DNA of 64,000 bases from an uncultured Poribacteria bacterium. GTDB taxonomy: Bacteria > Poribacteria > WGA-4E > WGA-3G. Positions within the stretch are counted from its first letter, which is position 1. Each line of letters starts with the position of its first letter. Positions 974-56,748 of this stretch are shown in pieces. The stretch is from the NCBI GenBank assembly GCA_951813565.1, contig OX638351.1, positions 1,280,001 through 1,344,000 on the forward strand. The letters are read 5' to 3'. Position numbers and translations under genes: made by a program. Below the pieces are notes generated by a model that saw only the letters and a program-made list of their open reading frames with translations, was not told the origin of the DNA and did no database searches.

Positions 974-1006
974 CAAATCAACGTCGAATGCGTCAATAGC
1001 ATTCGA
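974..1006 (+). repeat. 33-nt hairpin micro-element, copy A
   Basis: CAAATCAACGTCGAATGCGTCAATAGCATTCGA followed by CG; similar to copies at 12618, 15956, 56404, 56523, 56645; may also act as a terminator hairpin for the ECF gene. Confidence 0.7.
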
Positions 1007-1039
1007 CGTCAAGATAGGATTGATTTAGCAGTACCCATA

Positions 1040-4000
1040 CTAATTATCAAGTGAAAAACGTAGCACGCCCTGGCCATCCGTCCCGACATAGAGCGTGTTA
1101 TCATCAACAGCAAGACAGGTAACATGATGTGAGATTTTTGGCGTGACTTGCTGCCATGTGCCAATGTCCCTGTTAAATTGGTATATTTTCTGCTTAGATT
1201 CACCGTAAACCGTTGTGTCATTGACTGCTAATCTGTTCACAACGAGAGGTGTTCCTTCTGCATCAGTGAGTGTATGCCAGTCAGTGCCATTGCCTGACAA
1301 CACGACGCCTTTGTCGGTTGCCACATAGACAAAGTCTCCAGCGAAAACTATCGCTCTAAAACGGTCTACAGAAAATGGAAGATTGGCGGTGACATCGTTC
1401 CATGTGTTTCCCCCATCAACAGACTGCATGAGATGATCATCTTGTTTTCCGACGTAAACAGTATTTCCTGATACAGCAAGTTTAAAACCGATAGTTTCAG
1501 ACCAGTTGAGAGTAAAAAAAGAATTGTCATGACTATCACCTTCATCAAATATGCCTGTATCCAACCATTCAGAAAGACCAGGTTTCCATTTAAAGAGTTT
1601 GTGTATGTATTCCACATAGTACGTCTCCTCATTAAAAGCAAAACTACCAAGCATTGAAGTATAAAAACTTCCCATAATTGTTATTGGTCTTCTATGAGTA
1701 GTATTCATTTCATACAATTCTTCCATTGCTTTGTTTGGGTCATATACATTAAAGGCGGGTACTTTGGAAGCGTCAATGAGTCTATTATCTTTGGTAGATA
1801 AACGGTAAAACCGAGGTGTCCCAATTTTATCATCTCTCACATAGAGTTCCCCGTTAGATTCCGTCATACGCGTTAGATAACCTGTATCGCCAGGAATAGG
1901 TGTCCATGATTCTCCGCCATCAGTTGAACTGAGAAGTCCACTTGGCGTATGCGCGTAGAGGACACCGTTAACAGCAATCAATTCCTTAACATGTGTATTT
2001 ACGAATCCAGTATTGAATTGATGCCACGTTTTTCCGCCATCTGTGGTGCGGTAAATTCCGAATTTTCCAGATCTATAAAAAGTATTCTCATTTAACAATA
2101 CAGAAGCAAAAGCACTCCCCATATCGTTAGTATTGCCCAACGTTTTCCAAGTTTTACCTGTGTTCGTTGAATAGAAATGTTCCTTATCACTTACCACCAA
2201 CACCTGTTTTCCGGAGGCGGCAATATTGAGAAATATTCTAATGCTATGATTATAGGGTAATTCATTATCCTTCTCGCGCCGTGTAAATGTATTCAATAAT
2301 TTGCTCTTAGAAATGACTTTTTTCTCTATATTGTCCTGTGTCGGTGTTATAGGATCCCAGGAATCACCTTGATCGGTAGAACGGAATAGTGACCATCCTC
2401 CTAATGCTGTTTCCGTTGCTCTTCTTGTCAACCAAGAATCGAATCTCATTTTCGAAAAAATTCCAAATTTGAGTTTAGATTGACTCATATTTCTATTAGG
2501 TCTTGCGACATAGAGATTATCTTTTGAAGCTGCTAAAGTAAGTATAGGGTAAGTGTTATTTCTTCGATTTGTTTGATCGTAAAACAATTGTTCCCAAATA
2601 TCTCCATTGAGGCGATAGAGCCCTTTATAGGTGCCGACAAAGACGGTATTTTCAATTGCGGTGATTGCGCGAATTTTCCTGTCTTTTATACCTTCGGGCA
2701 ACGGTGTCCACGATTTACCCGCATTATCTGATCGGAATACTCCTTTTTCATAAGCAAGGTAGATTGTCATATCGCTTTGTCCACCTGGTATTTTATCCGT
2801 GATTACCATGCCAACAAGTTCACCTTTTATACATTCACAAAAAACTTTCCAAGTTTCACCTCCATCTGTAGAAGCAAAAATCTCTTTATCAACAGCGCGG
2901 TAGAGTATATTCTGCCACTCTGCCACGTGCCGGAATACATTCCTTGCTGTTAGTGCATCACGGATGGAATATTTGATGGTGTTTATGAGTTTCCACGACT
3001 GCCCATCATCTGTGAGTCTGTAGAGACCGTTTTTTGACGTTGCATACACGTCACCGTGGTTTGTTGTGAAGAGAGTACCAACTGCACCACCTTCTGGTCC
3101 TTTTACATCACTCCATTGCCGAAGCGGTTCTGATATTTCATCTTCTTCCACTTGTGCTGCAGCAAGCAGTGGTGTGTCCGACTCCTGTCCCGCACCGTTA
3201 CTTTTACTGGGGACATTTACACTGCCAATTTGTGCGCGCACCGCTGGTTTTGCTGGTGTGTCAATGACGAGTTGTGTATCTGTTATTTCAATTGTAGGTT
3301 CCGATTGTGCATTTAAGCTATACGGCTTCTGAAAATGATTTAAGTATTGCGTGCCAGCTCCCATCAGCAATAGGACTAAAACGGCAGCGGCTGCAGATAT
3401 TGCTAATGGTACCAGTGGTTTGTTTCCAGAGGGTGCCGCAGGATTAGAACGCGAAATTTCTTTCATGGTGTTTTCTGTTAATTGTGTAGGCAGTTGGAAA
3501 CTGCTAAGGTTTTCTTTAATCATGTTTTCCTCCTTTTTCAATCGGTTGCGTGCGCGATGAAGTCTACTGCGAACCGTGTTAGGAGATACACCCAAAAACT
3601 TGCCAATATCCTCACATGTCATTTCTGCGATGTAATACAGATTTACGATTGTGCGGTCACTCTCTTGCAGCTTGCTGAGTAGTTTCTGCACTATTGCTCG
3701 CCGTTTTTTGCTTACTGCTTCTTCACGTTGGCGTGTCATATACTCTGAATAATACACCTCCTCTAATTCAATGGGATCAGTTGCTTCTAACGACTGTAGA
3801 GCGAGTTTTTTCTTACGATGCCAATTCTTGCACTTATTGTTGGTAATGACATAGAGCCATCCTGCAAACTGACTGTGATGAGTAAGCGTCGCGAGCTTAT
3901 GATACGCTGTTAGAAAAGCGTCCTGTGCAATTTCTTGCGCAGTGTGAAAATCGCCAATTTTCTGCCATGCTAACGCGTGTATCTGTTTTTGGTATTTTTC

Positions 4001-4072
4001 CACAAGCGCAGTAAAAGCTTGTTGATCACCTTCTAAGGTTCGTTGGATCAGGTCAGCATCACTGTTTTTCAT
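1040..4072 (-). CDS. ECF sigma factor fused to TM helix and BNR/Asp-box beta-propeller (paralog 1)
   Basis: Sigma region 2 (AFTALVEKYQKQIHALAW..AQEIAQDAF..FAGWLYVI) and region 4 (EDIGKFLGVSPNTVRSRLHRAR); TM LAISAAAAVLVLLLMGA; many (S/T)xDxGxxW repeats; start moved to ATG 4072 after GAGG. Confidence 0.9.
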   Translation of the reverse strand: MKNSDADLIQRTLEGDQQAFTALVEKYQKQIHALAWQKIGDFHTAQEIAQDAFLTAYHKLATLTHHSQFAGWLYVITNNKCKNWHRKKKLALQSLEATDPIELEEVYYSEYMTRQREEAVSKKRRAIVQKLLSKLQESDRTIVNLYYIAEMTCEDIGKFLGVSPNTVRSRLHRARNRLKKEENMIKENLSSFQLPTQLTENTMKEISRSNPAAPSGNKPLVPLAISAAAAVLVLLLMGAGTQYLNHFQKPYSLNAQSEPTIEITDTQLVIDTPAKPAVRAQIGSVNVPSKSNGAGQESDTPLLAAAQVEEDEISEPLRQWSDVKGPEGGAVGTLFTTNHGDVYATSKNGLYRLTDDGQSWKLINTIKYSIRDALTARNVFRHVAEWQNILYRAVDKEIFASTDGGETWKVFCECIKGELVGMVITDKIPGGQSDMTIYLAYEKGVFRSDNAGKSWTPLPEGIKDRKIRAITAIENTVFVGTYKGLYRLNGDIWEQLFYDQTNRRNNTYPILTLAASKDNLYVARPNRNMSQSKLKFGIFSKMRFDSWLTRRATETALGGWSLFRSTDQGDSWDPITPTQDNIEKKVISKSKLLNTFTRREKDNELPYNHSIRIFLNIAASGKQVLVVSDKEHFYSTNTGKTWKTLGNTNDMGSAFASVLLNENTFYRSGKFGIYRTTDGGKTWHQFNTGFVNTHVKELIAVNGVLYAHTPSGLLSSTDGGESWTPIPGDTGYLTRMTESNGELYVRDDKIGTPRFYRLSTKDNRLIDASKVPAFNVYDPNKAMEELYEMNTTHRRPITIMGSFYTSMLGSFAFNEETYYVEYIHKLFKWKPGLSEWLDTGIFDEGDSHDNSFFTLNWSETIGFKLAVSGNTVYVGKQDDHLMQSVDGGNTWNDVTANLPFSVDRFRAIVFAGDFVYVATDKGVVLSGNGTDWHTLTDAEGTPLVVNRLAVNDTTVYGESKQKIYQFNRDIGTWQQVTPKISHHVTCLAVDDNTLYVGTDGQGVLRFSLDN

Positions 4073-4107
4073 CGCACACCTCAAAAACAAATTGATCTTT
4101 TAACATA

Positions 4108-4136
4108 TAGACACAATTCGGAGGTCAATAATTGCA
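4108..4136 (-). promoter_or_regulatory. Putative ECF-type promoter TGCAAT-N17-TGTCTA
   Basis: Same position and spacing as the motif upstream of the other three ECF fusions, but more diverged. Confidence 0.45.
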
Positions 4137-4276
4137 CTTTTCTGGAAAAAAATGCAATTATTAAAAAGAAAATGATTTTTCTTGAAAAAGAATGGAAAAA
4201 TGGTGGGACAAGGAAAAAAATTGGTGTTTTTAATGTGGGAAAGAAATTGTTATTGTGCTAAACGAGTGCTATAATT

Positions 4277-5005
4277 TCAATGGGTAAGCGTGTAGACAAT
4301 TGTGTTAATCCCCAATTTGAATGCCATATCGGAAAATTTACGCGGATAAAACGATTCTGCAGCATTCTGCCAAGCATCCCCTAAATCTGTATTAAAGTTA
4401 ATCATCATCATTAGCCTACCTTTATCATCAAACACACCCATACATTTCACTTGATAACCATCCTTTTCATGTGTTCTTCCGCTCCTGTAGGCAGCTGGTG
4501 CGGGGATTTGCATCAGTTTATCAATCTTAAAGAAGCATCGAAAAAGAGGATGTGTCATCGGAATATCTATGGGTTCGCGTTTGGGAAAGATTTTTTTGTA
4601 CTGTTTATAGAACCTTCTCCACTGTTCTGTGCCGTGAAAGTCATCTGTCATGATAAATCCGCCACGCAAAAGATACTCGCGAAGATTTTCAGCTTCTGCT
4701 TTGGAAAGGTTAAGTCGTCCTAATTCTGCTATATATGCAAACGGATAGTCAAAAATTTCAGGTGAACCCACTTCAACAACTTTTTCCTGAGGACTCGCCT
4801 TAATGTCTGTATGTTTGCGAAGTTGAATAAGTAAGTTTCGTTCTGCCGCCGGGTAATCTATATGCCACAAACTCTTATGCCGAAAACTCCCACTATATTT
4901 CAAACGGACAAATGTGAAATCATATTCAATATCTTTACTCATCGAAAGCGGGATGATGAACAATATCAATAGGATAATTGTTATGTAGCCTTTTTTATAT
5001 TTCAT
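4277..5005 (-). CDS. DUF4159-family protein with signal peptide
   Basis: FTFVRLKY..WHIDYPAAERNL..LREYLLRGGFIMTDDF..NTDLGDAW..GINTIVY pattern typical of DUF4159. Confidence 0.75.
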   Translation of the reverse strand: MKYKKGYITIILLILFIIPLSMSKDIEYDFTFVRLKYSGSFRHKSLWHIDYPAAERNLLIQLRKHTDIKASPQEKVVEVGSPEIFDYPFAYIAELGRLNLSKAEAENLREYLLRGGFIMTDDFHGTEQWRRFYKQYKKIFPKREPIDIPMTHPLFRCFFKIDKLMQIPAPAAYRSGRTHEKDGYQVKCMGVFDDKGRLMMMINFNTDLGDAWQNAAESFYPRKFSDMAFKLGINTIVYTLTH

Positions 5006-5120
5006 GGACTTACCAACCTATTGGTTTTAGATGTTTTAGGGTTAGGCTTATGCCGATTTTTTTCGCGTCTTTAGTGATGCAGAATCAATTTGGAGTACAA
5101 TTCTAATTTCGTAAGCTCTT

Positions 5121-5190
5121 ATATTATATTATATTATATTATATTATATTGTATTGTATTGTATTGTATTGTATTGTATTGTATTGTATT
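5121..5190. repeat. Compound pentanucleotide microsatellite (ATATT)6(GTATT)8
   Basis: Read directly from the sequence. Confidence 0.97.
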
Positions 5191-5216
5191 ATAACACAAA
5201 AACCAGAAAAGGTAAA
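5188..5216 (-). promoter_or_regulatory. Putative sigma70 promoter TTTACC-N17-TATAAT with extended TG, for the DUF4159 gene
   Basis: Minus strand TGTTATAAT abutting the microsatellite. Confidence 0.55.
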
Positions 5217-5344
5217 CCCTATTATAGCAGTTGGGTGTGTAAAGTTTTTGTAGAAACCCGCCCTACAGTGGAAAACGCCGCGTAACCATTGCAAATTGAA
5301 CCTATATAACCAAATATTTACACACCCCTTATTCCCTATTTTAT

Positions 5345-5374
5345 TTGACAAACAAATAATGACTAAAGTATAAT
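5345..5374 (+). promoter_or_regulatory. Sigma70 promoter TTGACA-N18-TATAAT
   Basis: Perfect consensus hexamers upstream of the 5707 gene. Confidence 0.7.
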
Positions 5375-5399
5375 GTAAAGCATTGTATTTCTATTATTC

Positions 5400-5555
5400 T
5401 AACCCAAGTTGCTACCTATATCGCGAATGCTCTTGTAGGAGGGGTTTCTAACCCCGATTTAGAAAAGAAAGCATAAGAATTAGCTGGAAATCCTTGTTTT
5501 TCAGTAAAAAGCAATGTCTGCAAGCTTGAAATCTTGTCCGTAGCAACTTAGGTTA
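5400..5555. mobile_element. MITE-like element containing a GTAG-type REP hairpin
   Basis: 16-bp inverted ends TAACC(C/T)AAGTTGCTAC (15/16); TTATTCTAA directly repeated at 5394-5402 and 5553-5561; internal GTAGGAGGGGTTTCTAACCCCG; another copy of the end at 15820-15838. Confidence 0.65.
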
Positions 5556-5706
5556 TTCTAATTACTTGAGCGGACTAATCAATAGATAAACCCATTGCTG
5601 AATCTATTTAAAAACAAAATATCTTAAATTCTGATAGAAGAATTGATGGATTCGTGTTTCTCACATCACTCTGTATAAAGAAATAAAAAAAAACAGATTT
5701 ACAATA

Positions 5707-6432
5707 ATGAATAACGACCAAATAAAATTCAAAAAGGTGTTTAAGATTGCGTTTGCATTACTTCTCTCAATTTCTTTTATTTTCCCAGCATTTAGCCAGT
5801 TTGCAGATTTACCACACGATGCGAAAACAGTAGATTTCGGGATTTCTGGAGACAGTGGTTCGCAAACACTTTCTTTAACCGCAGTCCTACCATTGAAAAA
5901 CATAAACGGTTGGGGAGGTATCTTTGGTTCGCAGGCTTCAGGTGAAGACGGTGTGGATTCTGAAATTATCAAGGTACATCTACAGGGTGGGATGCGTATT
6001 AACAAATTTGGAATCGAAGCATTTACAGACTTAGAACGTAACATTATTAAAGGAAGTGCCTTGACCTCGCAGATTGGGAGTTATATTCGACCAGGGATAT
6101 ATGAAAATGGTACACTTCGCATTTCTGGCGGTATTGGTTACTTTATTGAGAATATTCAACCTTACAAAGACCTTACAATAAGAAAATTTGATCCTACTTC
6201 ATTTCGATGGTTAGCGTTTTCTTCTGTAGGTTGGAAAAAACTGAATGCCGTATTGAAATTTACACCGGAAGTAGGCTTTAAGAATTATAGGTTTTCGGCA
6301 GAACCTGCTCTTACTTTTAACCTTACAACTCGACTCGGATTGCGTTTGAGTGGATCCTTAACATACAATAGCGCACCATTAACCGAGAATTTGCACTACA
6401 AATATCTATCAATTTTGCGAGTCACGCTATAG
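5707..6432 (+). CDS. Probable outer-membrane beta-barrel (DUF481-like)
   Basis: Signal peptide; alternating amphipathic strands; C-terminal strand YKYLSILRVTL. Confidence 0.55.
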   Translation: MNNDQIKFKKVFKIAFALLLSISFIFPAFSQFADLPHDAKTVDFGISGDSGSQTLSLTAVLPLKNINGWGGIFGSQASGEDGVDSEIIKVHLQGGMRINKFGIEAFTDLERNIIKGSALTSQIGSYIRPGIYENGTLRISGGIGYFIENIQPYKDLTIRKFDPTSFRWLAFSSVGWKKLNAVLKFTPEVGFKNYRFSAEPALTFNLTTRLGLRLSGSLTYNSAPLTENLHYKYLSILRVTL

Positions 6433-6563
6433 CGGTTACATTGATGCTTGAATATTCTACAAACAGTGTAATGATATTGGATTGGTGTTCAATTTTTTGG
6501 ATGAGCAATATTCGAAGAACATCTATTTAATGAATATTTTTCTAAAATGAAGGAAATCAAATA

Positions 6564-8969: not shown

Positions 8970-8991
8970 GGGTATGGGTTGGTAGTATCAG

Positions 8992-10221: not shown

Positions 10222-10248
10222 GAAATAATTTGGAAATAGTGATCACTG

Positions 10249-10923
10249 CTATTCTATTGTGATGTCTGATGTCTGATGTCGGATGACCTCCCCTTTGACG
10301 AGGTAATATACCTCCTCGCCAATATTTGCTGCAAGGTCTCCAACCCGCTCCAGATGTCGGAAAAGAAGCAAAACGCTGATACCAGACTGGATGAGTTGCG
10401 GTTGGTCGGCTAAAATAGAACAAAGTTCGTGCACCATCTGTTCATAGGCAGTATTAACTTTTTTATCGCGTTCGCGTAGTTCTCTTGCGAGTTCAGCGTT
10501 CCTATGGACAAGTGCATCAAGGGCGTCTTTGACCATCTGTTGAATGAGACGGGTTACCGAAGGAAGATCAACAAAGGTTTGCATTGGGGGATGCTCTAAA
10601 AGTTCCATGCCACGTCTGGCAATAGAAACACATTTGTCAGCTAACCTTTCGATATTTCTGTTTACCTTCAGTGCCATAGTTAAGTAGCGTAATTCAAAAG
10701 CTACAGGTTGATGGCGGGCAATTAGTTGTATACATCTCGCTTCAATTTCATTTTCAAGTTTGTCAACTGTATCGTCAATTGTGATAACGCGTTGTGCCAA
10801 ATCCTCATCACGGTTTAGGACTGATTGAACAGCATCGCGCAACATGTTTTCTGCAATCCCGCCCATTTTAAGGAGTTGGTGCTGAAGTGCTTTAAGTTCT
10901 GATTCAAGATAATGTTGCATCAC
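10249..10923 (-). CDS. phoU: Phosphate signalling protein PhoU
   Basis: DDTVDKLE..IARHQPVAFELR..IERLAD..LERVGDLAANIGEEVYY. Confidence 0.92.
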   Translation of the reverse strand: MMQHYLESELKALQHQLLKMGGIAENMLRDAVQSVLNRDEDLAQRVITIDDTVDKLENEIEARCIQLIARHQPVAFELRYLTMALKVNRNIERLADKCVSIARRGMELLEHPPMQTFVDLPSVTRLIQQMVKDALDALVHRNAELARELRERDKKVNTAYEQMVHELCSILADQPQLIQSGISVLLLFRHLERVGDLAANIGEEVYYLVKGEVIRHQTSDITIE

Positions 10924-10944
10924 TGTCTCCTTACATGTTTTGGA

Positions 10945-11901: not shown

Positions 11902-12663
11902 TTAAATTTGTTTCTTTTTCAGCAAACTTGCGAGAACGCTGGATAACAGTGCCGACGATAGAAGTACAATCGCACTACTTGGAATATTGAAAGTCTCTCC
12001 TGAACGTAGGGTATGTCTTGTCCATATATAAACTACAATGATTAGCGCAGCAATTGCGAGTGCCCGCGAAATCGCAGCACAGATTCCAACGACGATTGCT
12101 GGAAAAGCGTCTGGAAAAACATGGTCAACTATCACTCGCCATCTTTTTGCACCTAATGCATAAGCTGCTTCGCGAACAGATATATCAACGTCTCTAATAG
12201 CCTTTTGCGTTGACTGAACGGTAATTGGCACTACAAGTAAAGCAAAAGTTATTGCATGTGCAAAAACCGATCCTTTTTCTGTCTTAAAAACGAAAAAGTA
12301 AATACCTAATAGCCCATATATTAGGGACGGAATGCCTGCCAAAATTGCTATTTGCTGCGCTATAATTCGGTATTTCCAACTTGTTTCTGCCATCCACTCT
12401 TCTAAATAAAATGCAATTACAACGCTGAATAATATGGATCCGAACAGAACAGGGAGCATACGATAAAGTTTATCATGCAAATCCGAATGTGGCTCTGTAG
12501 TAATTTCATTGGATATCAGTTCGTTCCACACAAACGGTGTTTTTTCACTAAAAATCCAAAAAAGTATGAATGCAACAGCCAGTGTGATTAAGGCGATGCC
12601 CTGAAAAATCAGTCCCGACAAATGCCACACGCGCATTTGGCGTTGATTCGGCCTTTTCATCAT
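11902..12663 (-). CDS. pstA: Phosphate ABC permease, PstA-like (short)
   Basis: AFYLEEW, LAGIPSLIYGLLG, EAA motif VREAAYALGAKRW. Confidence 0.75.
   Translation of the reverse strand: MMKRPNQRQMRVWHLSGLIFQGIALITLAVAFILFWIFSEKTPFVWNELISNEITTEPHSDLHDKLYRMLPVLFGSILFSVVIAFYLEEWMAETSWKYRIIAQQIAILAGIPSLIYGLLGIYFFVFKTEKGSVFAHAITFALLVVPITVQSTQKAIRDVDISVREAAYALGAKRWRVIVDHVFPDAFPAIVVGICAAISRALAIAALIIVVYIWTRHTLRSGETFNIPSSAIVLLSSALLSSVLASLLKKKQI
12618..12650 (-). repeat. 33-nt micro-element, copy B, in frame inside the pstA-like 5' end
   Basis: CGAATCAACGCCAAATGCGCGTGTGGCATTTGT followed by CGGG. Confidence 0.8.
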
Positions 12664-15060: not shown

Positions 15061-15150
15061 GACTTGTGCCAGTTACGTATCAGTTTTGTTGTTTTTCACA
15101 ACTGTTCATATTCTGGAATCAACGTCAAATACGCTTTTGGCATTTGGCGG

Positions 15151-15884: not shown

Positions 15885-16070
15885 CAGAGGCATTCAATTG
15901 TAGCGTTTTCTAATCCAAAAGTAAAAAATAGCGTTGCCAAAGGTTAAAAGAGGCGACGAATGCCATACACGCATTTGGCAATAAATTGCGTGACTATAAA
16001 CGCTTTTGTTGTTAAATCGAACGGACAAAGCCCTCGGACAAGAGTGCTTCGCGAAAATTGAATGCCTCTG
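15885..16070. mobile_element. MITE-like element with 15-bp perfect inverted ends
   Basis: CAGAGGCATTCAATT ... AATTGAATGCCTCTG; encloses an interrupted REP; no target duplication seen. Confidence 0.6.
15956..15978 (-). repeat. 23-nt micro-element core, copy C, splitting a REP
   Basis: Removing it restores AAGAGGCGCAATAAATTGCGTGACTA, matching the intact REPs at 17676 and 21067. Confidence 0.85.
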
Positions 16071-17634: not shown

Positions 17635-17747
17635 TACCAATTCTATAAATGAATTTCCCTTTTGAATTAGAATATAAGAGGCGCAATGAATTGCGCGACT
17701 ACGAACGGTCTATTTCTTAAAGGGTATGTTATTTTATAGAAATGGTA
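17635..17747. mobile_element. MITE-like element enclosing a GTAG REP (17676-17702)
   Basis: Inverted ends TACCA(A/T)TTCTATAAA flanked by TAA direct repeats; internal minus-strand GTAGTCGCGCAATTCATTGCGCC. Confidence 0.6.
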
Positions 17748-21066: not shown

Positions 21067-21093
21067 AAGAGGCGCAATAAATTGCGCGACTAC
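21067..21093 (-). repeat. GTAG-type REP between convergent genes
   Basis: GTAGTCGCGCAATTTATTGCGCCTCTT. Confidence 0.75.
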
Positions 21094-36734: not shown

Positions 36735-37526
36735 ATGAAAATAAAACCTTTATTTGTAATACTCATCTCTATAGTATTTGTAGTATCTTTCGCACATGCA
36801 GCAAATGAACCGGAGGATTCGCTCATCCTTTACATGTCTTTTGATACGATTGATGGCAAAGGCACAATTGACCATTCAAAGTATGAGAACCATGGCGAAA
36901 TGATGGGTAATCCTAAACATGTTGCGGGCAAATTCGGAAAAGCTCTTAAGTTTGACGGCGTATCCGAATTTGTTGAAATCCCACACCATGAATCACTTAC
37001 CGTGGATCAGGATGTCACAGTCATGGCTTGGATTAATACCGAGAGACATACAGGACCTGATGACGCGCAATGGCAAGGTATCTTGGCAAAAGGGAACAAC
37101 CCACGTTCCTATAGTCTCTGGACTGAGAAAAATAGTAAATGTTTGCACTTCAGTGTAGGCCCACCACAAGGTGGTGGTAGTGTTTGCAAGGGTGAAGTCA
37201 AGTTAAACGAATGGCAACATGTTGTGGCACAAGTGAATAATGGAACCCACCGTTATTGGATTAACGGTCAGAAAGTTGGAGAAATCGTAAACAAACCGAA
37301 CCCTCCCGGTTTAGAAGATATATCACCTGTTGTTATCGGAACTGCGGGAGGAGGAAATATTAGATATTTCCTCGGTATGATTGACGAAGTTCGTATCTGG
37401 AACCGTGCCCTTTCTGAAGAAGAGATTAATAAACAGATGGAAAAAGGGCATTTTGAGATTTTCGCTGTTGACCCGAAACTAAAATTAGCTACCATTTGGG
37501 GCAATTTGAAGGCACAACAGCGATAA
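36735..37526 (+). CDS. Secreted LamG-like (concanavalin fold) protein 1
   Basis: Signal peptide; GKFGKALKFDG, TVMAWI, WQHVV, GMIDEVRIWNRALS; tail AVDPKLKLATIWGNLK. Confidence 0.9.
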   Translation: MKIKPLFVILISIVFVVSFAHAANEPEDSLILYMSFDTIDGKGTIDHSKYENHGEMMGNPKHVAGKFGKALKFDGVSEFVEIPHHESLTVDQDVTVMAWINTERHTGPDDAQWQGILAKGNNPRSYSLWTEKNSKCLHFSVGPPQGGGSVCKGEVKLNEWQHVVAQVNNGTHRYWINGQKVGEIVNKPNPPGLEDISPVVIGTAGGGNIRYFLGMIDEVRIWNRALSEEEINKQMEKGHFEIFAVDPKLKLATIWGNLKAQQR

Positions 37527-37623
37527 AATGGACGGTCATTTTGATTCGTCCGCGAAGGGTTTCTGCTGTATATCCAAGAAAGACTTGCGGAGACTCTCTA
37601 ATTTATATAAATAAGGAGGAAAA

Positions 37624-38400
37624 ATGAAAACTCTATTTGTAATGTTAACAATTATAACGTTTGTGGCTTCTTTTGCCCACGCGTTGAGTGAACCAGAGGA
37701 ATCGCTTATCCTTTACATGTCTTTTGATACGATTGATGGTAAAAACACAATTGATCATTCAAAGTATGAAAACCATGGTGAAATGATGGGTAATCCAAAA
37801 CATGTTGAGGGTAAATTCGGTAAAGCGCTCGAACTGAACGGTTCAAGTGACTGGGTTGTTGTGCCACATGATGATATTCTCACCGTTGATGAGGATTTTA
37901 CCGTTATGGCTTGGATTAATACTGAGAGACATATGGGACCTAATGCCCAACGTTGGCAAGGAATTGTTGCAAAGGGCAATGCCCCTCGTTCTTATAGTTT
38001 CTATACTGAATCCCCGAGTGAATGTATGCACCTCAGTGTTAACGGTGGCGGAAGCGTTTGTCAAGAAGGGAAAGTCGCGTTAAATGAGTGGCAGCATGTT
38101 GTTGCGCAGTCGGATAATGGAACACACCGGTATTGGATTAACGGCAAAAACGTTGGTGAATACGGAGGAAAACCGAAGCCTCCCGGCAAAGCTGATACCG
38201 CAAATGTCCTTATCGGGAGAACACATGAAGGAAATCGCGAGCTCCTCGGTCTGATTGACGAGGTCCGCATCTGGAACCGTGCGCTTACAGAAGAAGAAGT
38301 TATTGAACAGATGGAGAAAGGACATTTTGAGCTTTTTCCTGTTGATCCACGTCAAAAATTGACAACGACGTGGGGAACTATTAAAACTCAAAAACGATAA
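37624..38400 (+). CDS. Secreted LamG-like protein 2
   Basis: Paralog; tail PVDPRQKLTTTWGTIK. Confidence 0.9.
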   Translation: MKTLFVMLTIITFVASFAHALSEPEESLILYMSFDTIDGKNTIDHSKYENHGEMMGNPKHVEGKFGKALELNGSSDWVVVPHDDILTVDEDFTVMAWINTERHMGPNAQRWQGIVAKGNAPRSYSFYTESPSECMHLSVNGGGSVCQEGKVALNEWQHVVAQSDNGTHRYWINGKNVGEYGGKPKPPGKADTANVLIGRTHEGNRELLGLIDEVRIWNRALTEEEVIEQMEKGHFELFPVDPRQKLTTTWGTIKTQKR

Positions 38401-38494
38401 ATTCAATTAATAGTGATACGGTTTGTTCCTGTCACTGTAATCTTAATGATATGACTTCGGGATTTCCGAAGTAAAATTTGGAGGAAAATAATTA

Positions 38495-39265
38495 ATGAGA
38501 AGTTTCTTTGTTGTATTAATTCTTACCGTGTTTGTTGCATTTTACGCTAACGCCGCAGATGAATCAGATGATTCACTTATCCTCTATTTCTCTTTTGATG
38601 AGCTTGATGGGGACATGACAATTGACCATTCAAAATATGCTAATAATGGTTCTATAACGGGTGCCCCTCAATTGGTAGATGGTAAGTTCGGAAAGGCGCT
38701 TAAATTTAATGGCACAAGTGATTGGATTGAAGTACCACACGACCCGATTCTTACCGTTGAAACGAGTGTAACCGTAATGGCATGGATTAATGCAGAAAGA
38801 CACATGGGACCGAATGAACAGCGTTGGCAAGGTATCCTTTCAAAGGGTAATAGTCCGCGTTCTTACAGTTTCTACACAGAATCACCGAGTGAATGCTTAC
38901 ATTTGAGTGCTGGCAATAGCGGAAGCGTTTGCGAAGGAAAGATTGCACTCAATGAGTGGCAGCATGTTGTTGGGCAGGTAGATGATGGCACACACCGTTA
39001 TTGGCTAAACGGCGAAATGGTCGGTGAATTTGGTGATAAAAATGCTCTGCCTGGCGCTGCTGATACTTCAAGTGTTTTCGTTGGAAGAACACCGGAAGGG
39101 AACCGCGAGTTCCTCGGTCTGATTGATGAGGTGCGTATCTGGAATCGCGCTCTCAGTGAAGAAGAAGTTATCGCTGAGATGGAATCCGGATATCAATCGA
39201 GTACTGCTGTTGATCCACGTGCAAAATTAACTACAACGTGGGGGACCATAAAATCCCATAAATAA
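38495..39265 (+). CDS. Secreted LamG-like protein 3
   Basis: Paralog; tail AVDPRAKLTTTWGTIK. Confidence 0.9.
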   Translation: MRSFFVVLILTVFVAFYANAADESDDSLILYFSFDELDGDMTIDHSKYANNGSITGAPQLVDGKFGKALKFNGTSDWIEVPHDPILTVETSVTVMAWINAERHMGPNEQRWQGILSKGNSPRSYSFYTESPSECLHLSAGNSGSVCEGKIALNEWQHVVGQVDDGTHRYWLNGEMVGEFGDKNALPGAADTSSVFVGRTPEGNREFLGLIDEVRIWNRALSEEEVIAEMESGYQSSTAVDPRAKLTTTWGTIKSHK

Positions 39266-49665: not shown

Positions 49666-49742
49666 AAGGCAGCGCACTTTCCATAATAGAAGGCGTTGAT
49701 ATTATATTTTCCAACTTTATCACCCATATAAGGAGTGAGTAG

Positions 49743-50750
49743 ATGCCAGCAACTGAAGAAGTCCAAGCTATTGAAGAGTTAATGAAAAGCCAAGAATCAA
49801 TTGTGGAGCAGTTGAAAAAAGTTATTATCGGCCAAGAAGAGGTAATCAATCAGATGTTGATGGCACTCTTTGCCGGTGGGCATTGCCTTGTCGAAGGTGT
49901 GCCGGGATTAGCGAAAACGTTGATGATCAAAACACTCGCTGAGATCCTCAATCTCAAATTTAAACGAATTCAGTTCACACCTGATTTGATGCCCGCTGAT
50001 ATTATCGGTACCGATGTGCTTGAGGAGGATCGCACTACAGGACATAGGACGATTCGGTTCATTCAAGGGCCTATCTTCGCGAATATCCTTCTTGCCGATG
50101 AGATTAACCGAACGCCGCCGAAGACACAAGCTGCGCTTCTGGAAGCAATGCAGGAATACCATGTTACTGCTGGTGGTAACGAATACGAATTGACTGAACC
50201 CTTCTTTGTGCTTGCTACACAGAATCCAATTGAGCAGGAAGGCACATACCCGTTGCCAGAAGCACAGCTTGACAGGTTCATGTTCAAAATCGTTATAGAC
50301 TATCCAGCAGAGGAAGAGGAAGTTAATATCATTTCTGCGACAACAGGCGCCGAAGAACCAGAATTAGATACAGCACTTTCAGGTGAAGCCATTGTTGCGT
50401 TGCACCAAATCGTTCGCAGAGTGCCTGCAGCAGATAACGTTGTACAATACGCCGTAAAACTGGCTCGGGCAACCCGTCCTAAAGAAAAGGATGCACCTGA
50501 CTTTATTCAACAGTGGGTGCGATGGGGGGCAGGTCCGCGTGCAGGTCAGTATCTGATATTAGGTGCGAAAGCCAGAGCTATTCTCAGAGGACGTTACAAC
50601 GCTTCGTGTGAAGATGTTAAAGCAGTAGCGCCGGCAGTGCTACGACATCGCGTGCTGACAAACTTTCATGCTGAGGCTGAAGGGGTTGATACCGATATAG
50701 TTATTGAACGCCTCCTTGAAACAGTACAAGAACCTGCTGCCAAAATGTAA
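49743..50750 (+). CDS. moxR: MoxR-family AAA+ ATPase
   Basis: [47 protein letters not shown]. Confidence 0.95.
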
Positions 50751-50793
50751 TTCTCTGCGCTAAGGACCCCTTAAATTATCTCCGTTCCCATCT

Positions 50794-51483
50794 TTGGAGC
50801 GCAAAATCTTGAAAGTTTCGGTCATCATTCCTGTTTTAAATGAAGAAGGCGCGATTGCAAATGTCATCAACGATATTCCAAAATCGTTAGTTCAAGAAAT
50901 AATCGTTGTAGACAATGGATGCACCGACCGGACAGTAGAAATAGCGCGTCAACACGGTGCAAAAGTCGTGACTGAGCCGCGCAGAGGCTATGGCAGCGCC
51001 TGTCTTGCAGGAATCGCTGCTGTTCAAGTAGCGGACATCATAGTTTTTTTAGATGGTGATTATAGCGATGATCCAACGGAGATGCCATCGCTTGTGCAAC
51101 CGATCCAAGAGGGGCTCGCGGAGTTTGTTGTCGGCACACGTGTGCCAAGTGAAAAGGGCGCGTTGCTACCGCAGGCACAATTCGGGAACAAACTTGCAAC
51201 CTTTTTAATGCGAATCTTTTTCGGCGTCCAGTATACCGATTTAGGACCCTTTCGTGCTATCCGTTACGAACAACTCCAGGCATTAGGCATGCAGGATAAA
51301 AACTTCGGATGGACAATAGAGATGCAACTCAAAGCAGCCAAAATGGGGATGAATGTCCGTGAGGTGCCAGTCAGTTATCGTAAACGTATCGGCACATCAA
51401 AAATTAGTGGTACCTTCATCGGAAGTATCCGAGCTGGTGCCAAGATACTGACAACACTCTTTCGGTATACAATTCTACGTTGA
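50794..51483 (+). CDS. Glycosyltransferase family 2 (DPM1-like)
   Basis: IIPVLNEE, VVDNGCTD, DGD. Confidence 0.9.
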   Translation: MERKILKVSVIIPVLNEEGAIANVINDIPKSLVQEIIVVDNGCTDRTVEIARQHGAKVVTEPRRGYGSACLAGIAAVQVADIIVFLDGDYSDDPTEMPSLVQPIQEGLAEFVVGTRVPSEKGALLPQAQFGNKLATFLMRIFFGVQYTDLGPFRAIRYEQLQALGMQDKNFGWTIEMQLKAAKMGMNVREVPVSYRKRIGTSKISGTFIGSIRAGAKILTTLFRYTILR

Positions 51484-51520
51484 TTTCTTCCGAGGGCGGG
51501 CGTTCTGTTGTAGGTAAAGC

Positions 51521-52492
51521 ATGAAAAATCTTGTTACAGAACATTTCTGGTACGTCAAACAGATACATGTTTTCCGAGACCTCTCCGAAGAAGATGCCCG
51601 CGTGTTAGCACAGATAGTCACATTCAAAAACCTAAAACACGAGGAGCGAATTCGCGAAGAAGGTGTTTATCTAATTAAAGAAGGGCGCGTTAAAATTTCC
51701 GAAAATCTATCAGATGCTGATTCTGAGAAAGTTGAAAAGCGTTCTAAGAATTCAGACTCCAATGAAAAGCAAGACCCAGAAACAAAAGATGTGCTGGAAC
51801 CGGGCGAGATATTTGGAGTAATCTCAGATGAAGGGGTTTTGAATGAAAATCGAACGACCTTCGCGGAAACTCTGACTGAAGTTTGGCTCGGCACAGCGAC
51901 AATTCGTGATTTTTCGTTTTTTCTTAAACGGAAACCGCATTTAGCACTACCACTACCTCGTAGGAGGCAGCTAGGTTTCTCTAATGTGTTTGGAGCATCC
52001 ACTAATCCATTTTTGAGATATAATAGGAATAAGAAACAAGAGGAACAACTTAATTCACGCAGCATATTGAAAACATCCGCTGCTCCAGATTGTAAACGTG
52101 CCAACGCGTTCAGAAATATTATGTTCCGAAGCACATCTTCTTGTCTTGCACTGCTATTACAGAATCTTGCTTTGACCCCAGATAGAAACGGTGTTGTGTT
52201 CGTGCCTCGTCTACCAATTAGGCGTATCTCAAGACTAATTGGCAGTTCAACGGAAACAACTGAGACACTATTAAAAACGTTTAAACAACATAATGTAATT
52301 GATACACGGCGCGGACAGATTCAGATTTTGAATCCGTGGCAGCTAAAGAAAATTGCAGTTGCGCGGATGAAAACATTATCGCCACCCGAAGTGCTTGTCA
52401 CTGCTTCCGATGATGATATTGATTTAGAAAAGCTTATTAATTTTCAGGAAGATGCCAGAACTGAACCCCGCTCTGCTGGACCTTCGGTGTAA
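51521..52492 (+). CDS. Divergent Crp/Fnr family regulator
   Basis: VYLIKEGRVKI, PGEIFG, C-terminal HTH-like ISRLIGSSTET..L..F. Confidence 0.7.
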   Translation: MKNLVTEHFWYVKQIHVFRDLSEEDARVLAQIVTFKNLKHEERIREEGVYLIKEGRVKISENLSDADSEKVEKRSKNSDSNEKQDPETKDVLEPGEIFGVISDEGVLNENRTTFAETLTEVWLGTATIRDFSFFLKRKPHLALPLPRRRQLGFSNVFGASTNPFLRYNRNKKQEEQLNSRSILKTSAAPDCKRANAFRNIMFRSTSSCLALLLQNLALTPDRNGVVFVPRLPIRRISRLIGSSTETTETLLKTFKQHNVIDTRRGQIQILNPWQLKKIAVARMKTLSPPEVLVTASDDDIDLEKLINFQEDARTEPRSAGPSV

Positions 52493-52543
52493 AACTTTGT
52501 TCACGTTACTTACACAAGAATAGAAACTGATTATTTGGAGAAT

Positions 52544-53920
52544 ATGAAAAACAAAAATCCTTACCTAAACATTGACCAGCAAATGGTCGGTGACATTTAT
52601 ACAAGCCGCGAGGCTATGGAGAATTTGACGGTTTTATGTGATGACTTCGGATCCCGCTTTGCAGGAACCCCCGAAGAATACAAGGCTGCTACTTTTATCT
52701 CTGAAACATTTACTCGCTACGGTCTCAAAAACGTTAGATTGGAGGAATATCCCTACGCAGGTTGGACACGCGGTGCAGCTACGCTCACAATCACAGAACC
52801 TATTGAACGGACTTTGCACTGCATTTCGCTACCTTACTGTCCGGCGGGTGATATTACAGGTGAACTCGTTTCTGTCGGACATGGAAGTCCTCCTGAATAC
52901 AGTGGACTTGGTGAAACAGCCCGTGGTAAACTCGTGATGGCGAAAAGTTCATCACCGAGAGACCTTGGTAGGTGGGTACATCGGAAAGAAAAGTATGAAC
53001 GTGCATTTCTCGGTGGGGCAAGTGCTTTCATTTTTGTGAGTGAACACCCTGGCGTTGGACCAGAAACCGGTAGCCTTCAAAATAACAGACCCGCACCTAT
53101 TCCTGGTATCTCTGTTTGTAAGGAAGATGGCGATTTTCTGACACGATGTATTGATCGTTATGGAAAGGTGACAATGCGTCTGCAAACGACAGACATTAAC
53201 GAGCCTCGCACCTCATGGAACGTAGTCGCTGACTTACCTGGGAAAGAAATTCCTGAAGAGATGATTGTTCTGGGATGCCATTACGATGGACACGACATTT
53301 CGCAAGGTGCGCATGACCCCGCCTCAGGTATGGTTTCCGTTATAGAAGCGGCGCGTGTGTTAGCAACCTACACATCGGATATGCTAAAACGTACCATCCG
53401 ATTTATCGCTTTCGGAACGGAGGAAATTGGGCTTACCGGCGCATTTCGCTATGTTGAAGTACATGCAAACCAGTTAGATAACATTCGGTTCATGTTGAAT
53501 ATGGACGCAGCCGGCGGCACAAGTCGAAAAGGGATTGTTTTGCATCAATGGGATACGTTGGTACCGTTCTTTCAAACAGCACAGCAACAGATGCATGCAG
53601 ATATGCCTGTAGGACAGAAGGTGCATTCCTACTCCGACCATTTTCCGTTTTTTCTTGAGGGGGTGCCATCATGTCACATGGGCGACCCTACTTCTGTTCC
53701 ATCTGGACGCGGTTTTGGACATACTGCTTATGACACATTGGAAAAGGTGGAGTTGGAAAACCTTCGACGTGCAAGCTCAGTCGGTGCAAGGGTAGCGCTC
53801 CGATGCGCAAACGTAGAAAAATTTCCCGCAAAACGCCGTTCTAACGAGGATGTGCAGAAAATTGTTGATACAGACCCAGGATTAGAAGGGTACCGCATCT
53901 CTCTGAAATTGAAAGCATAG
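52544..53920 (+). CDS. M28 family metallopeptidase with PA domain
   Basis: HYDGH, GAHDPASG, EEIG, NMD, SDH. Confidence 0.88.
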   Translation: MKNKNPYLNIDQQMVGDIYTSREAMENLTVLCDDFGSRFAGTPEEYKAATFISETFTRYGLKNVRLEEYPYAGWTRGAATLTITEPIERTLHCISLPYCPAGDITGELVSVGHGSPPEYSGLGETARGKLVMAKSSSPRDLGRWVHRKEKYERAFLGGASAFIFVSEHPGVGPETGSLQNNRPAPIPGISVCKEDGDFLTRCIDRYGKVTMRLQTTDINEPRTSWNVVADLPGKEIPEEMIVLGCHYDGHDISQGAHDPASGMVSVIEAARVLATYTSDMLKRTIRFIAFGTEEIGLTGAFRYVEVHANQLDNIRFMLNMDAAGGTSRKGIVLHQWDTLVPFFQTAQQQMHADMPVGQKVHSYSDHFPFFLEGVPSCHMGDPTSVPSGRGFGHTAYDTLEKVELENLRRASSVGARVALRCANVEKFPAKRRSNEDVQKIVDTDPGLEGYRISLKLKA

Positions 53921-53947
53921 ATTGAATAGGTTTCTGTGGTATAACGA

Positions 53948-55453
53948 ATGAAGGCAAGCAAAATCCAAAACAGATCTCTGTCATATAATATAGGGATTTT
54001 ACTAAAAGATTTCTTTGTGTTTTGTAAGCGTCCACGGATTGCAATTCTGCTTTTAGTGTTAGTCCTTTCACTGTTCAGTTTTTTGCTTCAAGCAAGTGTA
54101 CACGCCGAGCAAGACCTACAACGTGCCGTTACGCAATCGAGACGGACAGCAATCGTAACAGCAGTCGAACGCGCAAGTCCCGCAGTCGTGAATATCAGCG
54201 CTATACAGAGTGTTACGCAGCTAACATCCCTTGATGAGTGGTTTTTGAGAGAATTTTGGGGAGAAGTTCCACCTATTCGCAAACGTTCCCTACGTGAAGT
54301 CGGTTCAGGTGTAATTATCAGTGAAGATGGTTATATCCTTACGAATCATCACGTTATTAAAAAAGCAGAAAAGATCAGAGTTGCCATCCCTGACGGACGA
54401 GAATTTGATGCGCATGTACTCGGTTACGATTTTCTCTCGGACCTCGCGCTTTTGAAAGTGGATACTAAAGAAGATTTACCCCAAATTAAATGGGGTGACT
54501 CCGATAATTTACTCATTGGAGAATGGGCGCTCGCAATCGGAAATCCCTTTGGGTTATCATTTGGCAACGCTCAACCAACAGTAACAATTGGAATTGTCAG
54601 TGCTACACAACGTTCTCTGGCGCTAGATAATCGTTTTTATGAAACACTAATACAAACAGATGCCTCTGTTAACCCAGGAAATAGTGGTGGTGCTTTGGTA
54701 AATGTACACGGTGAACTTATCGGTATAAACACCGTCATCCGTTCAACAAGCGGTGGTTCGCAAGGGGTTGGATTTGCTATTCCTGCAAATAAAGCGAGAA
54801 AGGTAATTGAGAAAATTACAGAACACGGATGTATTGTCCCTCCTTATCTTGGTGTGGAGATACAATCTGTAACAGAAGAAATGGCTGAAAAACTTTTGGG
54901 GAAGGAAGCTTCACAAAAATCCGTTTTTTCGCGTGGCGTTTTAGTATCGGAACTGGAAAAACAGAGTCCTATTGCTGCTGCCGGTATTAAACGAGGTGAT
55001 ATTATCCGGTCCATCTCAGGGCATCAGACTAAGGATGAAACCGATTTTAAGGCGGTTGTACGCTTACTGCCGCTAAACCAAAACATAAAGTGTGAATTTA
55101 TCCGTCGTGGTAAAAAAAGAGAGACGAACTTGAAATTAAAGACACTGGAATGGGAATATGCACCACAAAGATGGGGACTCACACTCACGCAGCCCGATAA
55201 GAAGAGGGCAAAAAAATATAAACGCCGTGGTGTCCTCATTTCACACATTGAAAAAGGAAGTGGATTAGCAGAGGTTCTTAAGAAAGGGGATGTTATCTAC
55301 CAAATAAACGATATTGAAATTCATACTCTTGAAATTTTTAAAATTGTTGATGAACGGATTCATGCACCAAGTAGAATTCAAGTCTACTTCGAGAGAAATG
55401 GCGAACAGAAGTCTATCCCTATCACTTTTCATAGGAACAATCGTTGGAGATAG
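53948..55453 (+). CDS. HtrA/DegP-like serine protease with two PDZ domains
   Basis: TNHHV, DLALLK, GNSGGAL triad; PDZ domains. Confidence 0.92.
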   Translation: MKASKIQNRSLSYNIGILLKDFFVFCKRPRIAILLLVLVLSLFSFLLQASVHAEQDLQRAVTQSRRTAIVTAVERASPAVVNISAIQSVTQLTSLDEWFLREFWGEVPPIRKRSLREVGSGVIISEDGYILTNHHVIKKAEKIRVAIPDGREFDAHVLGYDFLSDLALLKVDTKEDLPQIKWGDSDNLLIGEWALAIGNPFGLSFGNAQPTVTIGIVSATQRSLALDNRFYETLIQTDASVNPGNSGGALVNVHGELIGINTVIRSTSGGSQGVGFAIPANKARKVIEKITEHGCIVPPYLGVEIQSVTEEMAEKLLGKEASQKSVFSRGVLVSELEKQSPIAAAGIKRGDIIRSISGHQTKDETDFKAVVRLLPLNQNIKCEFIRRGKKRETNLKLKTLEWEYAPQRWGLTLTQPDKKRAKKYKRRGVLISHIEKGSGLAEVLKKGDVIYQINDIEIHTLEIFKIVDERIHAPSRIQVYFERNGEQKSIPITFHRNNRWR

Positions 55454-55562
55454 GTGTTTTAAGGGTGATAGAAAGCGAACACAGTGAGTTTGCTGTTAAG
55501 TAAAAATAATAAAGACAAAATAAGATATTAATTACATTAAACTACGACAATGGAGAACGAAA

Positions 55563-56276
55563 ATGAAATTGCAGCTACCCACACTCATTATTGTCTGTTT
55601 GTCTGTTGTGTTGATTCTTACTATATATTTTTTGGGTAGGAACACACAATCCATTCAAGAGTCTAACGAGGAAAGTGAAGAGTTTCAAACAGTTCGGATT
55701 GATGCTGAGAACGCTTACAACGCACAAAATTTCAATCAAGCTATAGAACTTTATGAACAGGCATTAGAGTTACGCCCTGAAAACGCTGAAATATATAACG
55801 ACCTCGGTTCTACTCATTACGATCTTGGATTGAAATATGCGGGACCGAAATGGCCCTCATGGCAGATTATGGACAAATCGGTTGAAGGCGCGCTTGCAGA
55901 GTTTGACCGTGCAATACAAATAACAGAGTCTGGATATATTGTTTTTGAAACGAGTTCGACTGAAATAGCAAAAGCAGTAGAAGAAAAGGCAAAGTTAAAG
56001 GGTGCTGCTGTCTTTCCTTACCATGGAAACTCACAGACTACACTCAATATCCTTATTGGGTCTACAAAAGATCATCTGCTACAGGCGCGTTGGATGTTTC
56101 GTAAGTCTATAGAATTGAAATCTACTTATGCTGCACCCTATCGTAATATCGGTGCGTTCTACATGAAAATAGGTATTAGAGATAAGGCTCTCAATTATTT
56201 GCGGGAAGCATACAAACGCGAACCGAGTGATGAGGTACTCGGGGAATATCTGCAACAATTCCGGAGTGAATTTTAG
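55563..56276 (+). CDS. Membrane-anchored TPR protein
   Basis: N-terminal TM; AIELYEQALELRPENAEIYNDLG. Confidence 0.8.
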   Translation: MKLQLPTLIIVCLSVVLILTIYFLGRNTQSIQESNEESEEFQTVRIDAENAYNAQNFNQAIELYEQALELRPENAEIYNDLGSTHYDLGLKYAGPKWPSWQIMDKSVEGALAEFDRAIQITESGYIVFETSSTEIAKAVEEKAKLKGAAVFPYHGNSQTTLNILIGSTKDHLLQARWMFRKSIELKSTYAAPYRNIGAFYMKIGIRDKALNYLREAYKREPSDEVLGEYLQQFRSEF

Positions 56277-56354
56277 GCGTTACTTTATAGGTATTTTGGC
56301 AAGCACTACAGTCTATTTTTACCATACCTAATTGACTATTGATCATAATAACCT

Positions 56355-56748
56355 GTAGGTTGGGTAGAGCGCAGCGAAACCCATAAATCGACGCTATGAA
56401 TGCCTGAATCAACGCCAAATGCGCCTGTGGCATTTGGCGGGTGTAAACTTAAGGATTTATTTCAGATTTCACACATTTTAACCCAAACAACACCGTAATC
56501 CGATTGTAGGGGCGGGTCTCCGGGGAATGCCAAAAGGCATTCGGACCCGGTGAATGACTAAATGTCGTTCATACCGTTGATTTCTTGATTTGGTGCCCGC
56601 CCGTTGTTTGAATACATTAGCAATGGCGGGGCACAGAGACCCCGCCAAATGCCAAAAAGCGCATTTGGCGTTGATTTGGCCCTACAAGGTTTGACGGGAA
56701 TTATCCACTAAATTGACGCCTATAGGTAGAGCACAGCGAAACCCAACA
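56355..56748. repeat. Nested REP cluster with three micro-insertions (56404-56437, 56523-56592, 56645-56678)
   Basis: GGTAGAGC.CAGCGAAACCCA repeated at both ends; two GTAGGG(G/C)CGGG..TCTC..GTGCCC REPs, each split by an insert. Confidence 0.85.

What the first reader, a model, noticed from the sequence alone, without database searches (positions are those of the whole stretch)
974..56678. Family of 23-34 nt hairpin micro-insertions that always land directly before a CG
Seen: six related copies of C(A/G)AATCAACG-(C/T)C(A/G)AATGC-N-GCATT(T/C). They lie at 974-1006 (+), 12618-12650 (-), 15956-15978 (-, core only), 56404-56437 (+), 56645-56678 (-), and a 70-nt compound at 56523-56592 (-). Each is followed by CG. 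Reconstructed empty sites are C^CGG (four times), G^CGC and A^CGT, all 4-bp CG-centred palindromes. Deleting copy C restores a REP found intact at 17676 and 21067; deleting the 56523 and 56645 copies restores REP hairpins. These are therefore true insertions. Loops vary while the AATGC/GCATT stem is kept, with co-varying flanks (CAAATGC/GCATTTG vs CGAATGC/GCATTCG). Established parallel: the very small dispersed repeats (SDR) of Nostoc. Inference: an ultra-small, structure-dependent mobile element, possibly targeting methylated or cleaved CG sites, mobilised by an unknown enzyme.
Basis: partly seen in the sequence, partly recalled or inferred. Interest (0 to 1): 0.8.

Follow-up and report, generated by a model that had tools for sequence, protein, structure and literature searches.

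The report
Tiny hairpin that overwrites its target
A 34-36-base DNA hairpin with a fixed tag occurs hundreds of times in this Poribacteria genome, inside other palindromic repeats, inside itself and sometimes in genes; it supplies its own closing CG and often replaces a base of the site it enters, and it is likely moved as single-stranded DNA by an enzyme that is not yet identified.

Summary
The repeat is real; the CG-target idea is wrong. The unit is NN-AATCAA plus a 10-bp hairpin that opens and closes with CG. G000 holds 551 simple units at 415 loci, against 0 for the reversed pattern. It was found in 58 of 73 genomes of one Poribacteria family and 0 of 47 others in the order. Empty alleles exist in REP copies and in orthologues. 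In five host-repeat families the empty site has A where filled copies mostly have G, with 1-4 target bases lost on the tag side. Only one of the six proposed CG-palindrome targets is supported. No IS110 was found (0 of 40), no Ku, and no link to reverse transcriptases; RAYT presence correlates weakly, with exceptions. Best guess (0.4): one-sided single-strand transfer by a RAYT-type HUH enzyme plus repair, then bulk copying with host REPs. This scan already noted the same family in at least eight other windows of this genome; the replacement-type junction was not in the summaries I saw.

The parts
974..1007 (+). Simple unit, 34 nt (CA + AATCAA + hairpin); closing G at 1008; intergenic
   Evidence: z -6.1; a diverged copy sits at the same place in G008 and no empty orthologue could be aligned
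12617..12650 (-). Simple unit inside the 5' end of an ABC-permease gene; net +33 nt, in frame; the target A is replaced
   Evidence: filled in G000, G006, G002; empty in G012, G014, G008, G017, G020, G023, G024, G019; two further orthologues not alignable
11902..12663 (-). ABC transporter inner-membrane protein (PF00528) whose predicted N-terminus gains 11 residues from the element
15115..15148 (+).
   Evidence: 33 empty copies of this context
15955..15977 (-). Tag-less 23-nt core in a REP (equivalent to 15956-15978); likely lost its tag by deletion between two CCAAAT direct repeats
   Evidence: full-length units in the same host site
17676..17702 (-). Empty copy of the REP that hosts the 15955 core
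21067..21093 (-). Second empty copy of the same REP
56384..56438 (+). 55-nt compound: truncated outer unit (56384-56404) plus an inner unit (56405-56438) in its loop
   Evidence: (host K list)
56522..56592 (-). 71-nt compound: one unit nested in the tag of another, in a REP loop whose empty form mostly has A
   Evidence: (host E list)
56505..56602 (+). Host GTAG REP interrupted by the 71-nt compound
56644..56678 (-). Simple unit, 35 nt, inserted in a REP arm with no net loss of target
   Evidence: 53 empty copies
56625..56686 (-). Host GTAG REP interrupted by the 56644 unit

Best explanation
This is a non-coding 34-36-nt dispersed insertion (two variable bases, a fixed AATCAA tag and a 10-bp hairpin closed by its own CG) that is likely moved as single-stranded DNA by a host HUH tyrosine transposase of the RAYT/IS200 kind, which would join the hairpin end exactly and leave the tag end to repair. 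SHOWN: anatomy, copy number, empty alleles, an invariant hairpin-side junction, loss of 1-4 target bases at the tag side (counting the position that the element's G takes), nesting, tandem stacks, and presence or absence of whole REP cassettes that carry a unit. INFERRED: that the mobile form is single-stranded, that nicks in hairpin DNA are the entry points, and that the enzyme is a RAYT. Also inferred: most present copies come from bulk copying with host REPs, tandem duplication and recombination between inverted copies, not from separate jumps.
For: Junction asymmetry. In five host families with A in the empty site (106/106, 42/42, 75/75, 106/110, 51/59), filled copies have G in 13/18, 9/9, 22/22, 40/43 and 8/8. 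Two orthologue comparisons show the same replacement, and one shows no net loss (G000:3913161, empty in G006 and G002). The stem is kept by compensatory changes while the loop varies, so structure matters. The A-type sites read C|T on the other strand, often at the complement of the REP GTAG; TnpA-REP cleaves single-stranded REP DNA at CT, 5' or 3' of the hairpin (PMC8266576: abstract, introduction and passages). G000 has five RAYT-like and five IS605-type Y1 loci. Within the genus, genomes with a RAYT match hold more copies (23 with, 8 without; Mann-Whitney p=0.023), and both zero-copy genomes have no RAYT match and no excess of the GTAG REP motif tested. Alternatives searched gave nothing: IS110 0 of 40, Ku 0 of 1, RT unlinked.
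Against: The element has no GTAG guide. No Y1 gene is bracketed by it. Y1 genes occur in 111 of 121 genomes of the order, including families without the element. G023 (one contig, 47 copies) and G010 (23 copies) have no Y1 match, and G014 (74 copies) has no RAYT match at E<=1e-15. REP excess against copy number is only rho 0.33, p=0.067. There is no strand bias against local skew (p 0.43-0.81), whereas IS608-type elements use the lagging strand (PMC6006769, passages); the skew signal here is patchy, so the test is weak. About half of the host contexts are not C|T sites. Classical peel-and-paste loses no target bases (established knowledge). The correlations are not corrected for kinship.
Confidence: 0.4

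Rival explanations
1. No dedicated enzyme: host repair polymerases patch nicks or breaks at palindromes by copying an existing unit (template switching, gene conversion), and recombination among palindromes does the rest.
For: Microhomology and short losses at the tag side; double-tagged and arm-hybrid copies (30 in G000); inverted loops; whole-cassette polymorphisms; copies in genomes without a Y1 match.
Against: It does not explain an invariant tag, a constant 34-36-nt length (547 of 551), or clean insertions into unrelated single-copy genes. No Ku was found.
Confidence: 0.25
2. An unrecognised enzyme confined to this Poribacteria family (not Y1, IS110 or RT) recognises the tag and hairpin and inserts the unit by replacement.
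For: Strict restriction to family f1 (58 of 73 against 0 of 47); none of the tested families tracks the element well; the tag is invariant across genera.
Against: No candidate gene found: the 20 ORFs with units on both sides look like ordinary genes by eye (not scanned against Pfam), and low-copy genomes show no conserved parent locus.
Confidence: 0.2
3. RNA-mediated: the unit is transcribed and inserted by target-primed reverse transcription, giving an exact 3' and a ragged 5' junction.
For: The junction asymmetry fits; G000 has two RT loci, one beside a CRISPR array.
Against: RVT_1 matches in only 18 of 40 genomes; none in G006 (383 copies), G063, G017, G070 or G014; no association with copy number (p=0.98). 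No strong orientation link to flanking genes (108 sense, 138 antisense).
Confidence: 0.07
4. Off-target, half-site integration by Cas1-Cas2, since unit length matches spacer length.
For: Units are 33-37 nt; G000 has three CRISPR arrays and, by my reading of the ORFs beside two of them, cas genes.
Against: No repeat-length target duplication; array repeats do not resemble the unit; no Rfam CRISPR family reaches threshold. The Cas1 profile was not run.
Confidence: 0.05
5. One reading: targeting of methylated or restriction-cut CG-centred palindromes.
For: A G follows the unit's last C in 418 of 437 non-tandem copies; CCGG is under-represented (0.64 of expected).
Against: The proposed CCGG empty sites occur 0 times for two testable copies; five host families and two orthologue pairs have no CG before insertion.
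Confidence: 0.03

Closest known systems
Small dispersed repeats (SDR) of Nostoc (Elhai et al. 2008, PMC2527708; not held, not read)
   Same: Very small size, dispersed precise-looking insertion, unknown mechanism. SDR5 is 21 nt and inserts precisely within HIP1 (PMC13756078 and PMC4390886, passages). Self-nesting and conserved structure are recalled from memory.
   Different: Different phylum; longer (34-36 nt); no fixed target octamer; replaces target bases. Sequence similarity to SDRs could not be tested.
GTAG REP / BIME / REPIN with RAYT (TnpA-REP)
   Same: 20-50-nt hairpin with a short conserved single-stranded motif on its 5' side, high copy, mostly extragenic (PMC8266576, introduction).
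   Different: The tag is AATCAA, not GTAG/GTGG; no cognate RAYT gene is bracketed by it; it sits inside REPs, including inside their GTAG, and forms head-to-tail stacks and nests.
IS200/IS605 ends and their peel-and-paste single-strand transposition
   Same: Hairpin plus short tail geometry; conserved flank on one side only.
   Different: One hairpin only; target bases are lost; no lagging-strand bias detected.
Rickettsia palindromic elements (RPE) and intragenic REPs
   Same: In-frame insertion into protein genes (PMC3733652, passages); three cases here.
   Different: Much smaller than RPE-1; in-gene copies are rare (21 of 415 loci touch a crude ORF call, many of them spurious).
IS110/IS1111 elements that target REPs
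   Same: Insertion into REPs without target duplication (family behaviour recalled).
   Different: No coding capacity, and no IS110 transposase domain in 40 genomes of the genus.

Membership tests
GTAG REP / REPIN | GTAG or GTGG tetranucleotide 0-2 nt 5' of the hairpin | tested here: not met
   The tag is AATCAA in all 31 aligned copies; criterion from PMC6006769 passage
GTAG REP / REPIN | Short hairpin, high copy, mostly extragenic | tested here: met
GTAG REP / REPIN | Cognate RAYT gene flanked by the repeat | tested here: not met
   10 Y1 loci of G000 read: two have one unit inside an upstream repeat, none is bracketed; one RAYT each in G006 and G002 has none
GTAG REP / REPIN | Cleavage by TnpA-REP at CT | not testable with these tools
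   About half of the host contexts read C|T on the other strand; needs biochemistry
SDR (Nostoc) | Dispersed very small repeat with empty alleles in relatives | tested here: met
   slightly larger than the 21-27 nt recalled for SDRs
SDR (Nostoc) | Sequence or structure shared with SDR1-8 | not testable with these tools
   Paper not held; no other paper held with SDR1 and SDR4
SDR5 (Nostoc) | Insertion confined to one fixed palindromic target | tested here: not met
   More than 20 unrelated host contexts
MITE | Terminal inverted repeats and target-site duplication | tested here: not met
   The usual unit has one tag; 30 double-tagged stretches in G000 gave no empty site; no consistent duplication
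IS200/IS605-derived non-autonomous element | Precise insertion next to a fixed 4-5-nt target, no loss | tested here: not met
   No fixed target; 1-4 target bases replaced at A-type sites
IS200/IS605-derived non-autonomous element | Lagging-strand orientation bias | tested here: inconclusive
   p 0.43-0.81 against local third-position skew, which is itself patchy
IS110/IS1111 | IS110 recombinase in the genome | tested here: not met
   PF02371 0 of 40 genomes; control rang in 6 of 14
CRISPR repeat (solitary) | Match to array repeats or Rfam CRISPR-DR families | tested here: not met
   (best: CRISPR-DR25 17.5 bits against cut-off 36)

The most novel reading that the evidence does not exclude
A 35-nt hyperparasite of REPs that is mobilised by a so far unrecognised, family-restricted enzyme and inserts by a replacement reaction: exact joining at its hairpin end, overwriting 1-4 target bases at its tag end. 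That would be a new insertion chemistry for very short single-stranded DNA and a tractable model for how SDR-like repeats move.
Probability: 0.2. Interest if true: 0.85.

Novelty: new variant of a known kind. Interest (0 to 1): 0.58.

Why it matters
How repeats under about 40 nt spread is a long-standing open question for SDRs and REPs. This family gives hundreds of copies, many empty alleles and a precise junction rule (element-supplied CG, ragged tag side), so any proposed enzyme can be tested against a defined product. It also adds 10-12 residues to proteins in some lineages. If a small enzyme inserts such short hairpins with little sequence preference, it could be of use as a tool. Until the enzyme is found it is a well-described new repeat family and not a new mechanism.

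Tried and rejected
Rfam: no match at gathering score; only sub-threshold hits in 56350-56750. Viral contigs: 79 loose-pattern hits, 19 with 3 or more of 4 variable stem pairs; the one read lies in what looks like coding DNA, and I treat them as chance. Sequencing runs: no RNA holder listed; laying contigs of four runs on a 19.9-kb, element-rich stretch of G000 outside the window was uninformative, because contigs break at the repeats. IS91-type Y2 search: 0 in G000, but the control did not ring either, so no conclusion. Strand-bias tests were negative with low power. Search for an autonomous parent: genes bracketed by units (20 ORFs, read by eye), the 10 Y1 loci, the 2 RT loci and 32 loci from low-copy genomes gave none. 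Orthologue scan: of 75 candidate sites in 905 kb of aligned G006/G002 DNA, 8 rows passed the flank filter; 2 distinct sites are clean single-unit indels, 3 are whole cassettes, and 1 (two rows) is a misalignment. Double-tagged copies as a primary mobile form: no empty site for any of 30. Recalled likeness of the tag to some CRISPR repeats and of the geometry to oriT sites was not tested beyond Rfam. Literature searches for a prior description found none; subscription journals and the SDR paper and its supplements were not seen.
Full report
Observation. All six sequences are present as described, and a seventh copy lies at 15115-15148. The window is G000:C1:1280001-1344000. Of the 80 listed hits of an exact-pattern scan of species genomes, 79 are titled Candidatus Poribacteria and one uncultured bacterium. 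A broad pattern finds 551 simple units at 415 loci in G000 and none on the reversed genome; 547 of 551 are 34-36 nt long. Across 120 other genomes of the order, a similar pattern matches 58 of 73 in family f1 and 0 of 47 in three other families, with 0 to 383 copies within the genus. At 52 loci from a public metagenome assembly whose flanks are at least 97% identical to G000, the unit is present in both, including two window copies, so it is not an assembly artefact; I cannot show that this sample is independent.

Anatomy. The unit is two variable bases, an invariant AATCAA, and a 10-bp stem that opens with CG and closes with CG around a 7-8-nt loop. In 31 copies from four genera, 94% of stem cells pair, four pairs change on both sides, and no shuffle reaches the score. 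Relatedness, my choice of pattern and recombination between arms all favour this result. Units nest in their own loop and tag, stack head to tail (117 of 551 are followed by another unit), and appear with inverted loops, hybrid arms or two tags. These derived forms are most simply read as recombination between inverted copies (inference).

True insertions. REP families hold both filled and empty copies at the same base, for example 128 empty of 207, 155 of 244 and 34 of 42. Orthologues confirm it. The 12617 copy is a net 33-nt in-frame addition to an ABC-permease gene, filled in 3 genomes and empty in 8. G000:3913161 is a 36-nt addition that is empty in G006 and G002, and a G006 copy is empty in G000. 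A copy in G092 coincides with a 10-residue gap in the G000 orthologue protein. Whole 160-170-nt REP cassettes that carry a unit are also present or absent as blocks, so copy number far exceeds the number of separate insertion events. Within the species, one of 52 loci differs by exactly one 34-nt unit in a stack; this may be recent activity, gene conversion or an assembly collapse. No new-site polymorphism was seen.

The CG is not the target. Joining flanks at all offsets gives most genomic matches when the terminal C is removed with the unit (187 of 381 units; 163 gave no match at any offset). In five host families the empty site has A at the position of the G (106/106, 42/42, 75/75, 106/110, 51/59), yet filled copies have G in 13/18, 9/9, 22/22, 40/43 and 8/8; in five other families the empty site already has G. 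These copies are not independent, but the ten families are different sequences, and two orthologue pairs show the same A-to-G replacement. The few filled copies with A are about as common as decay of the internal CG (6 of 283 against 12 of 389). On the tag side, A-type sites lose 1-4 target bases, usually with the first variable base matching the target. By my hand count, about 11 host contexts have G, 12 have A and 1 has C at that position. The hairpin end is therefore exact and element-defined, and the tag end is ragged. Whether the G travels with the unit or is written afterwards by stem correction cannot be told from sequence.

Mechanism. An exact join at one end with short losses and microhomology at the other suggests one-sided strand transfer or primed copying at a nick, finished by repair (inference). 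HUH Y1 enzymes recognise single-stranded hairpins and cut beside them; TnpA-REP cuts at CT (PMC8266576: abstract, introduction, passages), and the A-type sites read C|T on the other strand. G000 has ten Y1 loci, and RAYT-positive genomes carry more copies (p=0.023). Against this: no GTAG guide, no bracketed gene, Y1 genes across the whole order (111 of 121), element-bearing genomes with no Y1 match (G023, G010), a weak link to REP abundance (p=0.067) and no strand bias. IS110 was not found in 40 genomes of the genus, Ku was not found in G000, and no RT was found in the genome with most copies. I put RAYT-type mobilisation at 0.4, enzyme-free patching and conversion at 0.25, an unknown dedicated enzyme at 0.2, RT at 0.07, Cas1 at 0.05 and CG-methyl targeting at 0.03.

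Comparison and novelty. It behaves like the Nostoc SDRs. I could not read that paper and saw only passages on SDR5 in PMC4390886 and PMC13756078; other SDR traits are recalled. It is built like a REP with a different tag but fails the GTAG and REPtron tests, and it is not a MITE, an IS110 derivative or a CRISPR repeat by the tests run. Six literature searches found no description, but the library lacks most subscription journals. Eight earlier notes of this scan describe the same family in other windows of this genome, with the enzyme unknown; I saw only their short summaries, and they are not independent evidence. Verdict: a real, lineage-restricted, very small mobile repeat and a new variant of a known kind, with a distinctive replacement junction and an unsolved mobiliser. 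Interest 0.58.

Noticed in passing
window:11902-12663 (-): The element adds 11 codons in frame just after the predicted start of an ABC-permease gene in three related genomes.
   Followed up: yes
G000:C1:3912536-3913327 (-): An ORF that looks like an ISAs1-type transposase fragment (read by eye) carries a 36-nt in-frame unit that is absent in G006 and G002.
   Followed up: partly
G000:C1:3988991-3995000: A stand-alone reverse transcriptase next to a cas1-like ORF (read by eye) and a CRISPR array of about 54 repeats; no link to the element found.
   Followed up: partly
G000:C1:811749-813284: A 511-aa divergent reverse transcriptase (weak RVT_1 match) with structured upstream DNA; possibly a defence RT; not classified.
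   Followed up: no
G000:C1:2830681-2832200: A CRISPR array with no cas gene recognised by eye among the neighbouring ORFs.
   Followed up: no
G000:C1:3536364-3536650: Head-to-tail stack of at least eight identical 35-nt units.
   Followed up: partly
L031 (whole locus): Tandem REP array in another Poribacteria record in which filled and empty repeats alternate, showing gain or loss of the unit within one array.
   Followed up: partly
G000, five loci (242089, 1368721, 3098010, 3549623, 5070893): Five RAYT-like genes, each beside a different REP family; at least one has an internal stop codon.
   Followed up: partly
window:5109-5193: Pentanucleotide microsatellite (TTATA/TTGTA), unusual in length for a bacterial intergenic region.
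   Followed up: no
window:22756-32531 and 36735-39265: Tandem paralogue clusters: three large repeat-rich proteins (WD40-like, by eye) and three related proteins of about 260 aa.
   Followed up: no
L336 and L341 (G023): Double-tagged copies in AT-rich, non-REP DNA; could be fold-back-extended intermediates, but no empty allele was available.
   Followed up: partly
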